Sequence record: KX534337
From: Escherichia phage Greed
Direction: 5' to 3' (one strand)
DNA: 60,042 nucleotides
In this document: in pieces, positions 42,617-44,141 of the stretch
Position numbering within the stretch: the first letter of the stretch is position 1
Layout of the letters: each line of letters opens with the position of its first letter
Program-made: the position numbers and the translations under genes
The notes under the pieces: generated by a model
What the model saw: only the letters and a program-made list of their open reading frames with translations
What the model was told of the DNA's origin: nothing
The model's database searches: none

Positions 42617-42898
42617 TTAACGCTTATGAAAAGCTGACAGGATTGCAAGTGTTACAGCACCCAATCCGACGACGGTAGCATAAGTGAGTTGGTGTTGAAC
42701 TTTAACAAAGCTATAATAGGTGCTAGGGATGTCTACAATCCCAAACGCCATAGCAAAGCTGGTCCCAAGCAGTGCTACAGCAAGGGCGCGTAATAACGCC
42801 CTGCTCATTGCTGTAAAGCCCTTCTCATTACTATCTCCGGTCATTATAACAACAATGATTAGAAATAGCGAAACGACAACTAATAGATATTCCATCAT
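42617..42898 (-). CDS. Membrane protein (93 aa)
   Basis: Three predicted hydrophobic helices. Confidence 0.45.
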   Translation of the reverse strand: MMEYLLVVVSLFLIIVVIMTGDSNEKGFTAMSRALLRALAVALLGTSFAMAFGIVDIPSTYYSFVKVQHQLTYATVVGLGAVTLAILSAFHKR

Positions 42899-43101
42899 TT
42901 GCGTCTCCTGTACATGTATTGATCATACGCAGTCGCAATAATAGTGACTGGCCAGCAAGCGAGTATACATAGAAGACTTACAATCTTCTCCCAACGTTTC
43001 TTATGGGCTAGCGCATAATCATAGTTATTCCAACAAAAGAAATAAGTCATTGCTGCAATAACTGCACCAATTACAAAATACATAACCACATATTCATACA
43101 T
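42895..43101 (-). CDS. Membrane protein (68 aa)
   Basis: Two hydrophobic helices; coupled to neighbours. Confidence 0.45.
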   Translation of the reverse strand: MYEYVVMYFVIGAVIAAMTYFFCWNNYDYALAHKKRWEKIVSLLCILACWPVTIIATAYDQYMYRRRK

Positions 43102-43288
43102 CGGTAAACTCCCAAATCAGATTATAATTATTTCCCGCTGGTACATAGCGCCCTGGACGTGGATCGAAGCTTTTCACTGAAAACTCCAGCGTTCCGGTGC
43201 TATATAGTTGCACCTTTTGTCCGTCCCACGGTCCGCCTATCAATTTAAAAGTCTGTCGATAACCTTTTGCAGCTCTAGCCATGCTCAC
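43094..43288 (-). CDS. Hypothetical protein (64 aa)
   Basis: Small ORF with GGAG-type RBS. Confidence 0.4.
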   Translation of the reverse strand: MSMARAAKGYRQTFKLIGGPWDGQKVQLYSTGTLEFSVKSFDPRPGRYVPAGNNYNLIWEFTDV

Positions 43289-43324
43289 TCCTTAAATACC
43301 CGCGCGAACGCGGGTATTATTTTA

Positions 43325-43531
43325 TTACGCTTCCGGTGTTTCCGGTGATGGTTCATCAGGAACAACAATAACGTCGGCTAAAACTTTTAACGCTTCTTGT
43401 TGCTCCGCGGTCATATTATTCCAGTAATAGACGTGAATGTAAACTACTGGTTTGTCACCATGTTGCCACGGTTCGCGACTTGCTACATCCACACCTAAAT
43501 CGCTTGCTACGCTCTTTTCTTTACCAGCCAT
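43325..43531 (-). CDS. Hypothetical protein (68 aa)
   Basis: Small ORF; acidic C-terminus. Confidence 0.4.
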   Translation of the reverse strand: MAGKEKSVASDLGVDVASREPWQHGDKPVVYIHVYYWNNMTAEQQEALKVLADVIVVPDEPSPETPEA

Positions 43532-43563
43532 GCTAATGTACCCCTTTAAGGTTTTACACGCGG

Positions 43564-43857
43564 CTAGCCCCCAAAAGTACCCATATGATCAAGGGTTCTA
43601 ATGCGCTGCTCCAGCCAACGTGCGTTCTTTTCAAAATGTTTATTGGTACGCGCTGCTTTGCACGCATCAATAATACCTAACTCACATCCAAGCTGCGTTT
43701 GTCCCATCACGTAAGAATGGGTTAACATGCTGGATACAAGCTCTTCACATTGTAACTTAATAGGATGGTCTTGGCATAGTTTCTTTGCTGCATCTTTTAA
43801 ATCCACAGCTTGGACACCAGGCGCTATCAGCAAAGTTACGAGTAATAAACGTTTCAT
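43564..43857 (-). CDS. Secreted/periplasmic protein with signal peptide (97 aa)
   Basis: N-terminal MKRLLLVTLLIAPGVQA signal-peptide-like sequence; six Cys. Confidence 0.45.
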   Translation of the reverse strand: MKRLLLVTLLIAPGVQAVDLKDAAKKLCQDHPIKLQCEELVSSMLTHSYVMGQTQLGCELGIIDACKAARTNKHFEKNARWLEQRIRTLDHMGTFGG

Positions 43858-44141
43858 TATGCTTTCCCTTTACGACATAAGGCTTGAAGTTCCAGAAGCG
43901 CATCAATGTCTTCCTGTGGAGTTACACCAACGTGAATTGGATATTTAGCGCGACATTCGTTGCCGACTTCAACAGTGTGGTTAATGTAGCCGTAAACACA
44001 TCCACCAATAAGAGTGAAGATAAGCGCAACAATCATTGTAAGGTACTTACCTTGTTTGCGTTCTTCATTTTGTTTATTAAGCTGACGGTTAAGTTCTACA
44101 GCGTCGATTTTACCTTTATTGTAATCGTCTACTAAGCTCAT
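43857..44141 (-). CDS. Membrane-anchored protein (94 aa; track ORF starts at a TTG at 44198)
   Basis: ATG at 44141 has an AGAGGAGA RBS; one central transmembrane helix. Confidence 0.45.
   Translation of the reverse strand: MSLVDDYNKGKIDAVELNRQLNKQNEERKQGKYLTMIVALIFTLIGGCVYGYINHTVEVGNECRAKYPIHVGVTPQEDIDALLELQALCRKGKA

What the first reader, a model, noticed from the sequence alone, without database searches (positions are those of the whole stretch)
42617..44141. Six-gene block of small membrane and secreted proteins
Immediately inside the convergent terminator on the minus arm are six short genes, bounded downstream by a terminator. Three are predicted membrane proteins, one has a signal peptide with six Cys, and one is membrane-anchored. 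None is recognisable; the set may act at the envelope, for example in exclusion, lysis timing or host modulation.
Basis: inference. Interest (0 to 1): 0.5.

Follow-up and report, generated by a model that had tools for sequence, protein, structure and literature searches.

The report
Accessory small-gene block in a Seuratvirus phage
The six short genes are real and conserved, but they are dispensable accessory genes of an E. coli phage (genus Seuratvirus): four of the proteins are predicted to go to the cell envelope and two are soluble, their functions are still unknown, and the block as such is ordinary.

Summary
The window is a Seuratvirus (Queuovirinae) coliphage genome, 99.6-99.9% identical to vB_Eco_SLUR76/26. 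The six minus-strand genes at 42617-44141 are real: each has an RBS, they are syntenic in about 35 phages, and median dN/dS is 0.07-0.18. There is one bitopic membrane protein (g1), one secreted protein with four Cys, not six (g2), two soluble proteins (g3, g4) and two polytopic membrane proteins (g5, g6). No protein matches Pfam, NCBIfam, PADLOC, the PDB or any annotated PHROG. The block is a Seuratvirus-specific insertion between the DNA polymerase gene and the convergent terminator; the one Nonagvirus examined lacks it. It is a mosaic of three translationally coupled units (g1-g2; g3; g4-g5-g6) whose genes have separate distributions. A complete lysis cassette and a Cor/Llp-like lipoprotein lie elsewhere in the window. 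In phage DruSM1, 97.8% identical over the block, all six single deletions gave viable phage, and only the g4 deletion was listed as altering BREX type I sensitivity. The most likely reading is heterogeneous accessory cargo. The g1-g2 pair and g5/g6 probably modify the infected cell's envelope, for example by superinfection exclusion, but this is inferred and not shown. Interest is low.

The parts
44176..44196 (-). Terminator-like hairpin T1 between the DNA polymerase gene and g1 (GCAGACCC-UUCGC-GGGUCUGU followed by UUUUAAUAUAU). It may overlap a weak promoter-like TTGCAG ... TAATAT.
   Evidence: Flagged by the terminator scan. The fold is -13.6 kcal/mol with z = -4.5. It is conserved directly upstream of g1 even in STP-SP5, where an extra gene is inserted before it, and in yong3. 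It is annotated as a terminator in phage Seurat. The promoter reading comes from reading the sequence only.
43857..44141 (-). g1: a 94-aa bitopic inner-membrane protein, predicted N-in/C-out. It has a conserved 34-aa cytoplasmic N-terminus (MSLVDDYNKGKI..ELNR), a TM at residues 35-53, and a 41-aa periplasmic tail with two conserved Cys (63, 89).
   Evidence: ORF and strong SD sequence. KD19 is 1.99. Flanking charges are +4/-2 before the TM and +2/-2 after it. The Cys are conserved down to 44% identity, and dN/dS is 0.11. It belongs to PHROG 26834, function unknown. No relative was found in 185,579 species genomes. The DruSM1 ORF35 deletion is viable.
43564..43857 (-). g2: a 97-aa secreted periplasmic protein. 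A signal peptide is predicted to be cleaved after VQA17, leaving an 80-aa all-helical mature part with four conserved Cys (28, 37, 58, 66). It is translationally coupled to g1 through a TAATG overlap.
   Evidence: Sequence. Signal-peptide features are kept in the orthologues (VNA|VD, ASA|MT), the four Cys are conserved in all 14 orthologues aligned, down to yong3 (30% identity), and dN/dS is 0.18. The AF2 model has four helices but pLDDT is only 55. Only four protein clusters exist in 5.8 billion sequences, three of them on contigs of 58-61 kb, the size of a whole phage genome. The DruSM1 ORF34 deletion is viable.
43325..43531 (-). g3: a 68-aa acidic soluble protein (pI 4.5) with a PETPE-type C-terminal tail. 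It is absent from Hafnia phage yong3.
   Evidence: dN/dS is 0.14. It belongs to PHROG 22730, function unknown. The DruSM1 ORF33 deletion is viable.
43415..43443 (-). A sigma-70-like extended -10 promoter candidate inside g3, facing g4-g6 (TTTACA-17 nt-TGgAATAAT).
   Evidence: It is the best promoter-like match in the scanned 6.5 kb, with 10 of 12 positions plus the TG. Both hexamers and the TG are kept in the 60%-identical STP-SP5 orthologue. Function is not shown. The scan found fewer sites overall than in shuffled sequence.
43295..43318 (.). A GC-rich hairpin with a UUCG loop between g3 and g4. It has a good U-tract only in the plus-strand orientation. On the minus strand it is followed directly by the g4 SD sequence.
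   Evidence: Flagged as a plus-strand terminator. The fold is -17.5 kcal/mol with z = -3.0. It is conserved in all relatives that have g3, including STP-SP5.
43094..43282 (-). g4: a 62-aa basic soluble protein with a GGPWDG motif and four predicted beta strands. It is the most variable gene of the block, with three C-terminal allele types.
   Evidence: The mean dS among relatives is about 1.2, against 0.36-0.57 for its neighbours, and dN/dS is 0.12. AF2 pLDDT is 62. Deletion of DruSM1 ORF32 is listed among the nine deletions that change BREX type I sensitivity. Distant homologues occur in a few unrelated phages.
42895..43101 (-). g5: a 68-aa protein with two hydrophobic segments, a basic loop and a basic RRRK tail, so its topology is ambiguous. 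It overlaps g4 by 8 nt. It is absent from STP-SP5 and VogelGryff and is highly diverged (98 aa) in yong3.
   Evidence: It belongs to PHROG 23919, function unknown. The DruSM1 ORF31 deletion is viable.
42617..42898 (-). g6: a 92/93-aa protein with three TMs, predicted N-out/C-in. The likely start is the second ATG at 42895. It is coupled to g5 through an ATGA overlap. It is the most constrained gene of the block.
   Evidence: dN/dS is 0.065, and the first codon is not Met in several relatives. Homologues at 50-55% identity exist in Salmonella 9NA (gp16), Sashavirus and Edwardsiella eiAU; in 9NA and eiAU, the two contexts inspected, the homologue is the last gene before a convergence point. Only six representative clusters were found in 1.84 billion proteins. 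It is lost in VogelGryff. The DruSM1 ORF30 deletion is viable.
42594..42615 (.). A bidirectional intrinsic terminator at the convergence of the structural (+) and replication (-) arms.
   Evidence: The folds are -14.9 kcal/mol on the minus strand and -16.2 kcal/mol on the plus strand, with z = -3.4 and -4.4. A hairpin is kept, with different stem sequences, in STP-SP5, yong3 and one IMG/VR contig. It is annotated on both strands in Seurat.

Best explanation
Shown here:
- The block is a Seuratvirus-specific accessory cassette. It is inserted at the distal end of the replication arm, between the DNA polymerase gene and the convergent terminator.
- It is built from three translationally coupled units: g1-g2, g3, and g4-g5-g6. 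The genes have separate evolutionary distributions and all are under purifying selection.
- None of the six is needed for plaque formation in a near-identical phage.

Inferred, not shown:
- The block is heterogeneous cargo and not one machine.
- g1 and g2 work together in the periplasm. g1 is N-in/C-out with two conserved periplasmic Cys. g2 is a secreted helical protein with four conserved Cys.
- g5 and g6 insert into the inner membrane.
- These four proteins are made with the replication genes, before the late lysis proteins. Most probably they alter the infected cell's envelope so that later-arriving phages cannot deliver DNA, i.e. superinfection exclusion of the T4 Imm/Sp, P1 Sim or HK97 gp15 type, or they protect the envelope in some other way.
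- g4 acts in the cytoplasm and helps the phage against BREX.
For: Identity and conservation:
- The window is a Seuratvirus genome, and the block is 92-99.9% identical in 32 records.
- Nonagvirus SE1 ends its replication arm at the polymerase gene, and Providencia phage PSTCR4 has one 51-aa gene there. The block is therefore a lineage-specific addition.
- dN/dS is 0.065-0.18 for all six genes.

Mosaic structure:
- The junctions are TAATG (g1/g2), an 8-nt overlap (g4/g5) and ATGA (g5/g6). Gaps, a hairpin and a promoter-like site separate the three units.
- Genes are present or absent independently. VogelGryff lacks g5 and g6, STP-SP5 lacks g5, and yong3 lacks g3.
- g6 also occurs in 9NA, Sashavirus and eiAU phages.
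- g4 alleles are much older than the flanking genes.

Envelope targeting: TM and signal-peptide predictions, with conserved even-numbered Cys on the predicted periplasmic side.

Not lysis: a complete cassette (endolysin, holin, i-spanin and overlapping lipobox o-spanin) lies at 17.0-18.7 kb.

Dispensability and the BREX link: DruSM1 Table S1, bioRxiv 10.1101/2024.04.14.589459. The deletion primers map exactly onto the six window genes.

Restricted to virulent phages: no match in 5,426 complete E. coli genomes, 72,556 plasmids or 185,579 species genomes.

The preference for exclusion rests on established knowledge. Small phage periplasmic or inner-membrane proteins of known function are mostly lysis or exclusion proteins.
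Against: - No exclusion phenotype has been measured for any of these genes.
- No sequence or fold similarity to any known exclusion protein was found.
- The AF2 models are of low confidence (pLDDT 55 and 62).
- Expression timing is inferred only from strand and position. A terminator-like hairpin sits between the polymerase gene and g1, so even transcription of the block is unresolved.
- The coliphage orthologues are 94-99% identical for five of the six proteins. This is not the rapid diversification often seen in arms-race genes.
- A receptor-masking lipoprotein candidate already exists next to the J-like fibre gene.
- The g4-BREX link comes from a table in a preprint. No complementation is reported there, and a polar effect on the coupled g5-g6 is possible.
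Confidence: 0.4

Rival explanations
1. Lysis-timing control. g1 (34-aa cytoplasmic N-terminus, one TM, disulfide-bonded periplasmic domain), g2 (97-aa secreted protein) and g3 (small acidic cytoplasmic protein) would act like a miniature T4 T/RI/RIII lysis-inhibition set. Alternatively g5 or g6 would act as antiholins or auxiliary holins that tune the canonical holin.
For: - The predicted topologies resemble those of T4 T, RI and RIII (the T4 comparison is from established knowledge).
- g6 has the N-out/C-in three-TM layout of class I holins.
- g5 has two TMs and a basic tail, like class II holins.
Against: - The block lies about 25 kb from the complete lysis cassette, on the opposite strand.
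- There is no homology to annotated holin, antiholin or RI PHROGs, to Pfam families, or to PDB entries.
- g6 lacks a charged C-terminal domain; its tail is only HKR.
- g5 and g6 are missing from some viable relatives.
- All six single deletions still form plaques.
Confidence: 0.12
2. Anti-defence or host takeover at the membrane. The envelope proteins would neutralise membrane-associated host defences or stress sensors (for example an RseA/RseB-like mimic acting on envelope stress signalling) or inhibit host envelope enzymes. g4 would be a genuine anti-BREX factor.
For: - The g4 homologue is among the nine DruSM1 deletions that lower infectivity on BREX type I.
- g4 shows allele turnover typical of host-interaction genes.
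- The block sits beside the deazaguanine anti-restriction genes on the same arm.
- The g1 topology matches that of anti-sigma factors (inference only).
Against: - Table S1 of the DruSM1 preprint lists no defence-system change for the g1, g2, g3, g5 or g6 deletions.
- There is no PADLOC, Pfam or NCBIfam similarity.
- The g4 phenotype was not complemented or discussed in the paper.
Confidence: 0.25
3. Virion or tail-fibre accessory functions. Because the block abuts the variable lateral tail-fibre region, its products would help fibre assembly or be virion components.
For: - The block is adjacent to the tail-fibre arm.
- The loss of g5 and g6 in VogelGryff coincides with replacement of the lateral fibre module.
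Against: - The block is on the opposite strand, in the replication arm.
- The proteins are predicted to be membrane or periplasmic, which does not fit cytoplasmic tail assembly.
- The block stays constant across phages whose neighbouring tail-fibre arm is replaced right up to the block boundary (KS_A3/KS_S4, against the full coverage of the block).
- All six deletions are viable.
Confidence: 0.05

Closest known systems
T4 Imm (small inner-membrane protein) and Sp/Spackle (secreted periplasmic protein), the superinfection exclusion pair; also P1 Sim and HK97 gp15
   Same: These are small, non-essential phage proteins targeted to the inner membrane or periplasm. They are made before lysis and act on the infected cell's own envelope. 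g2 is a 97-aa signal-peptide protein like Sp, and g1, g5 and g6 are small membrane proteins. The comparison rests on established knowledge of these systems, and only the predicted topologies were tested here.
   Different: There is no detectable sequence, profile or fold similarity. No exclusion phenotype is known. g1 and g2 are translationally coupled, with conserved Cys pairs on both partners.
T4 lysis-inhibition set: holin T, antiholin RI and RIII
   Same: The trio of topologies matches: an N-in/C-out bitopic protein with a cytoplasmic N-terminus of about 34 aa and a disulfide-bonded periplasmic domain, a secreted periplasmic partner of about 97 aa, and a small cytoplasmic protein.
   Different: - The g1 periplasmic domain is only 41 aa.
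- No homology was found.
- The phage has its own class-I-type holin beside its endolysin.
- The genes lie in the replication arm and are individually dispensable.
Lambda S105 (class I) and phage 21 S68 (class II) holins
   Same: g6 has three TMs and is predicted N-out/C-in. g5 is 68 aa with two hydrophobic segments and a basic C-terminus.
   Different: - They are not next to an endolysin.
- g6 has no charged C-terminal domain.
- g5 and g6 are absent in viable relatives.
- No PHROG or Pfam holin match was found.
T5 Llp and T1/phi80 Cor receptor-masking lipoproteins
   Different: None of the six proteins has a lipobox. The window's real candidate for this family is the 77-aa lipoprotein at 37002-37232, beside the J-like fibre gene.
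Morons of lambdoid phages (accessory genes flanked by a promoter and a terminator)
   Same: Lineage-specific extra genes added at an operon boundary, bracketed by terminator-like hairpins, with a promoter-like site inside the block.
   Different: The host is a virulent phage. No copy was found in E. coli chromosomes, prophages or plasmids. Promoter activity is not shown.

Membership tests
T4 Imm/Sp-type superinfection exclusion | Sequence or profile homology to the Imm or Sp families | tested here: not met
   PHROG, Pfam and NCBIfam scans returned only the proteins' own unknown-function PHROGs. The PDB sequence search for g2 gave zero hits at E <= 10. I assume from memory, and did not verify, that the PDB copy holds Spackle entries.
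T4 Imm/Sp-type superinfection exclusion | Small inner-membrane or periplasmic localisation | tested here: met
   By prediction only: TM segments in g1, g5 and g6, a signal peptide in g2, and conserved Cys on the predicted periplasmic side.
T4 Imm/Sp-type superinfection exclusion | Blocks DNA entry of a secondary phage when expressed | not testable with these tools
   This needs plating and DNA-injection assays.
Holin / antiholin (including T4 T/RI/RIII) | Encoded in or next to the lysis cassette | tested here: not met
   The lysis cassette is at 17026-18668 on the plus strand. The block is at 42617-44141 on the minus strand.
Holin / antiholin (including T4 T/RI/RIII) | Homology to a known holin or antiholin family | tested here: not met
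Holin / antiholin (including T4 T/RI/RIII) | Holin needed for plaque formation | tested here: not met
   From the literature, not computed here: the DruSM1 deletions of ORF30, ORF31 and ORF35 (g6, g5, g1) gave viable phage.
Two-component spanin (Rz/Rz1) | Outer-membrane lipoprotein partner with a lipobox Cys, and an inner-membrane partner with a long periplasmic coiled coil | tested here: not met
   The g2 signal peptide ends VQA|V with no Cys at +1, and the g1 periplasmic tail is 41 aa. Canonical i-spanin and o-spanin genes lie at 18029-18505 and 18363-18668.
Cor/Llp lipoprotein exclusion | Lipobox lipoprotein encoded beside the receptor-binding protein | tested here: not met
   None of the six proteins has a lipobox. 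A lipoprotein homologous to DruSM1 ORF21 sits at 37002-37232 next to the J-like gene.
Anti-BREX proteins (applies to g4 only) | Loss of the gene sensitises the phage to BREX, and the gene restores infectivity in trans | tested here: inconclusive
   The deletion phenotype is listed in Table S1 of 10.1101/2024.04.14.589459. The main text reports no complementation and does not mention the gene. I did not compare g4 with Ocr or other known anti-BREX proteins by name; the PDB sequence and profile searches gave only a rejected repeat artefact (7on7) and one weak unrelated hit (2zez, E 0.29).
Moron | Autonomous promoter-gene-terminator unit, typically expressed from a prophage | tested here: inconclusive
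   Terminator-like hairpins and one promoter-like site are present. However, the phage is virulent and no prophage or chromosomal copies exist.

The most novel reading that the evidence does not exclude
g1, g2 and perhaps g3 would form a previously undescribed trans-envelope module of virulent siphophages. It would consist of a membrane-anchored protein with conserved cytoplasmic and disulfide-bonded periplasmic ends, coupled to a secreted disulfide-bonded helical partner. The module would sense or block events in the periplasm. It would be either a new exclusion mechanism against DNA entry or a T4-like lysis-inhibition signal outside the T-even phages.
Probability: 0.12. Interest if true: 0.55.

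Novelty: new member of a known kind. Interest (0 to 1): 0.22.

Why it matters
If the envelope proteins prove to be exclusion or envelope-modifying factors, they would add new protein families to a known functional class. They would also matter when Seuratvirus phages are used in cocktails, because exclusion affects co-infection. The g4-BREX link, if validated, would add a very small anti-defence protein. As it stands, the block is a typical set of conserved, dispensable phage genes of unknown function. It is already annotated in dozens of genomes and has already been knocked out gene by gene.

Tried and rejected
- **Family libraries.** Pfam, NCBIfam and PADLOC scans gave only sub-threshold noise. 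PHROGs gave only unknown-function families, plus a weak g2 hit (E 0.0016) to the T4 'valyl-tRNA synthetase modifier' family over the signal-peptide half. I judged this hit uninformative.
- **PDB sequence searches for all six proteins.** Nothing credible was found.
- **g4 and a designed Kelch propeller.** The single-sequence hit to 7on7 (E 9e-9, but no individual stretch passing) vanished when the g4 profile was used. I rejected it as a repeat-summation artefact.
- **Structure prediction.** The AF2 models of g2 and g4 were of low confidence (pLDDT 55 and 62). Foldseek against the PDB and BFVD returned only the protein itself or noise.
- **Large protein searches.** Searches with g2, g6 and g4 found only close Seuratvirus-type relatives. 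A full HMMER profile search with g6 found six representative clusters.
- **Rfam.** Only a chance Leu-leader hit, E 0.89.
- **Bacterial and plasmid copies.** None were found in E. coli genomes, plasmids or species genomes.
- **Spanin idea for g1/g2.** Rejected: there is no lipobox, the periplasmic domain is short, and the real spanins were found elsewhere.
- **Holin idea for g5/g6.** Rejected on position, dispensability and lack of homology.
- **Context of distant g4 homologues.** This gave no clue.
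Full report
**What the window is.** The 4.5 kb around the finding is 99.6% identical to Escherichia phages vB_Eco_SLUR76 and SLUR26, and 92-98% identical to about 30 other members of the genus Seuratvirus (Queuovirinae), including Seurat, CAjan, slur01, DruSM1 and four BASEL phages. Over the block alone, identity is 99.9% to SLUR76 and 97.8% to DruSM1, and 32 of 35 matching records cover at least 80% of it. GC skew flips sign at about 9 kb and about 42.6 kb. The block therefore lies at the distal end of the long minus-strand (replication) arm, where that arm meets the plus-strand structural arm.

**Checking the observation.**
- Six minus-strand ORFs fill 42617-44141 exactly. 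I call them g1 to g6:

| Gene | Coordinates | Length |
|---|---|---|
| g1 | 44141-43857 | 94 aa |
| g2 | 43857-43564 | 97 aa |
| g3 | 43531-43325 | 68 aa |
| g4 | 43282-43094 | 62 aa |
| g5 | 43101-42895 | 68 aa |
| g6 | 42898-42617 | 93 aa, or 92 aa from the second ATG |

- Each gene has an SD-like sequence, and each is annotated as a CDS in the 10 related GenBank records whose annotation I inspected.
- I built codon alignments of up to 14 orthologues per gene. Median pairwise dN/dS is 0.11, 0.18, 0.14, 0.12, 0.18 and 0.065 for g1 to g6, against 0.03 for the polymerase C-terminus. These are genuine, constrained protein genes.
- The downstream terminator is real and works in both orientations (42594-42615; -14.9 and -16.2 kcal/mol). 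A second terminator-like hairpin separates the polymerase gene from g1 (44176-44196; -13.6 kcal/mol, z = -4.5).
  - g1 has one TM (residues 35-53).
  - g2 has a cleavable-type signal peptide (MKR / LLLVTLLIAPG / VQA|VD) and four Cys, not six.
  - g3 (pI 4.5) and g4 (pI 9.5) have no hydrophobic segment.
  - g5 has two hydrophobic segments and g6 has three.

**Anatomy.**
- The junctions define three translationally coupled units. g1 and g2 share TAATG. g4 and g5 overlap by 8 nt. g5 and g6 share ATGA. g3 stands alone, separated from its neighbours by gaps of 32 nt and 42 nt.
- The g3-g4 gap holds a conserved GC-rich hairpin with a UUCG loop (43295-43318; -17.5 kcal/mol). Its U-tract is good only in the plus-strand orientation.
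- Inside g3 lies the best sigma-70-like site of the scanned region (43443-43415; TTTACA-17 nt-TGgAATAAT). Both hexamers and the TG are kept in the 60%-identical STP-SP5 orthologue. Its activity is unproven. The DruSM1 g3 deletion removes this site but is not listed with the BREX phenotype of the g4 deletion, so it is probably not the only source of g4 transcripts.
- In g1, charges flanking the TM (+4/-2 before, +2/-2 after) and two Cys on the C-terminal side predict an N-in/C-out orientation. Those Cys are conserved down to 44% identity, as are the four Cys of g2 down to 30% identity.
- Both the cytoplasmic N-terminus of g1 (MS[LI][IV]D[DE]YNKGKI..ELNR) and its periplasmic C-terminus are the best conserved parts of the protein.
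- g6 fits an N-out/C-in three-TM layout. g5 has both a basic loop and a basic tail, so its topology is ambiguous.

**Comparative picture.**
- The block is specific to Seuratvirus. In Nonagvirus SE1 the polymerase gene is the last gene before the convergent tail-fibre arm. In Providencia phage PSTCR4 a single 51-aa gene follows it.
- Within the genus the content varies:
  - VogelGryff (Bas25) lacks g5 and g6.
  - Salmonella phage STP-SP5 lacks g5 and has an extra 63-aa gene before the g1 hairpin.
  - Hafnia phage yong3 lacks g3 and has a very different 98-aa protein in place of g5.
- g1, g2, g3 and g5 were found only in Seuratvirus-type genomes.
- g6 has homologues at 50-55% identity in Salmonella phage 9NA (gp16), Sashavirus phages and Edwardsiella phage eiAU. 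In 9NA and eiAU, the two contexts I inspected, the homologue is the last gene before a convergence point. Even so the family is tiny, with six representatives among 1.84 billion proteins.
- g4 is the outlier among close relatives. It has three C-terminal allele types, 76-97% identity, and a mean dS of about 1.2 against 0.36-0.57 for its neighbours. This indicates exchange of old alleles.
- No copy exists in 5,426 complete E. coli genomes, 72,556 plasmids or 185,579 species genomes.

**Function: what is excluded.**
- No protein matches Pfam, NCBIfam, PADLOC or any PDB sequence, and each falls in its own unknown-function PHROG.
- The AF2 models of g2 (four helices) and g4 (four strands) were of low confidence, and Foldseek found nothing.
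- Lysis is covered elsewhere. The window has an endolysin (to 17667), a three-TM holin with a charged tail (17704-18048), an i-spanin (18029-18505) and an overlapping o-spanin with an ICAG|C lipobox (18363-18668), all just upstream of terS.
- Receptor-masking exclusion also has a better candidate: a 77-aa lipoprotein at 37232-37002, right after the J-like fibre gene. This is the position where the BASEL study places exclusion proteins (PMC8594841).

**Function: experimental data from a relative.**
- Ojima et al. (bioRxiv 10.1101/2024.04.14.589459) attempted to delete every ORF of DruSM1. Their Table S1 lists ORF30 to ORF35 as successfully deleted.
- Their deletion primers map onto window g6, g5, g4, g3, g2 and g1 respectively, with 0-2 mismatches. 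All six genes are therefore individually dispensable for plaque formation.
- Only ORF32 (g4) carries a note, 'Brex type1'. It is one of nine such entries, matching the paper's count of nine deletion mutants less infectious on BREX type I.
- The main text does not mention ORF32, and no complementation is reported. A polar effect on the coupled g5-g6 cannot be excluded.

**Most likely explanation.**
- Shown: this is a lineage-specific, dispensable accessory cassette. It is made of three coupled units whose genes have independent histories, and it lies on the replication arm, away from the lysis genes.
- Inferred: it is heterogeneous cargo and not one system.
- The g1-g2 pair probably acts together on the periplasmic face of the inner membrane, and g5 and g6 act within the membrane.
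- Small phage periplasmic or inner-membrane proteins of known function are mostly lysis or exclusion proteins (established knowledge: T4 Imm/Sp, P1 Sim, HK97 gp15, holins, spanins). Lysis is accounted for elsewhere in this genome. I therefore rate envelope modification that blocks secondary infection as the most likely role, at about 0.4 for the whole statement.
- g4 most likely acts in the cytoplasm and contributes to BREX evasion.
- Rivals are a T4-like lysis-timing set (0.12), membrane-level anti-defence or host takeover (0.25) and tail-fibre accessory roles (0.05). The evidence for and against each is listed in the report sections.

**Comparison with known systems, and novelty.**
- The block works, at most, like known exclusion or lysis-regulation proteins.
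- It fails every membership test that could be run: homology, lipobox, position and essentiality.
- The genes are already deposited as hypothetical proteins in dozens of genomes and have been knocked out individually.
- I rate the block a new member of a known kind, namely conserved small accessory envelope proteins of phages, with low interest (0.22).
- The most novel reading still open is that g1-g2(-g3) is an undescribed trans-envelope exclusion or signalling module (probability about 0.12).

Noticed in passing
window 18363-18668 (+), overlapping 18029-18505 (+): A 101-aa ORF with a clear lipobox (MPTSKLILMSVFLMICAG|C) and a Pro-rich stretch overlaps the 3' end of the i-spanin-like gene in another frame. 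It looks like an o-spanin. DruSM1 annotates only its last 50 codons, and Seurat annotates neither a holin nor a spanin.
   Followed up: partly
window 37002-37232 (-): A 77-aa lipoprotein gene is embedded on the opposite strand directly after the J-like central fibre gene (33842-36961). It is 82% identical to DruSM1 ORF21. It is the likely Cor/Llp-type receptor-masking exclusion protein.
   Followed up: partly
window 40279-41115 (+) and 42384-42587 (+): There are two odd proteins at the end of the structural arm. One is a 278-aa Gly-rich protein (GGDGFGGEAGAAGIGG...GWGGNGGWGG) with a CCC motif and a C-terminal PTPPTPPTGCC. The other is a 67-aa protein with five Cys. Neither has a known function.
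   Followed up: no
window 43094-43282 (-), g4: g4 has three C-terminal allele types among otherwise near-identical phages, and synonymous divergence about three times that of the flanking genes. This suggests allele exchange by recombination. Its DruSM1 homologue is linked to BREX type I sensitivity in a preprint table.
   Followed up: partly
window 43295-43318: The hairpin between g3 and g4 is a better intrinsic terminator on the plus strand, where no gene is annotated. It could stop late-operon transcripts that read through the convergent terminator in antisense across g6-g4.
   Followed up: no
L007 3504-3779 (9NA gp16); L008 2947-3228 (eiAU P858_12): In these unrelated siphophages the g6 homologue is, as in the window, the last gene of its operon, immediately before a convergence point.
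   Followed up: partly
L004 (VogelGryff/Bas25) 1887-2773: The loss of g5 and g6 coincides with a replaced lateral tail-fibre module that ends in a different 221-aa gene. The convergence point is therefore a recombination hotspot.
   Followed up: no
window 44206-46245 (-), DNA polymerase: Table S1 of the DruSM1 knockout preprint lists the DNA polymerase (ORF36) and its processivity factor (ORF37) as successfully deleted. This is surprising for a phage-encoded replicase.
   Followed up: no
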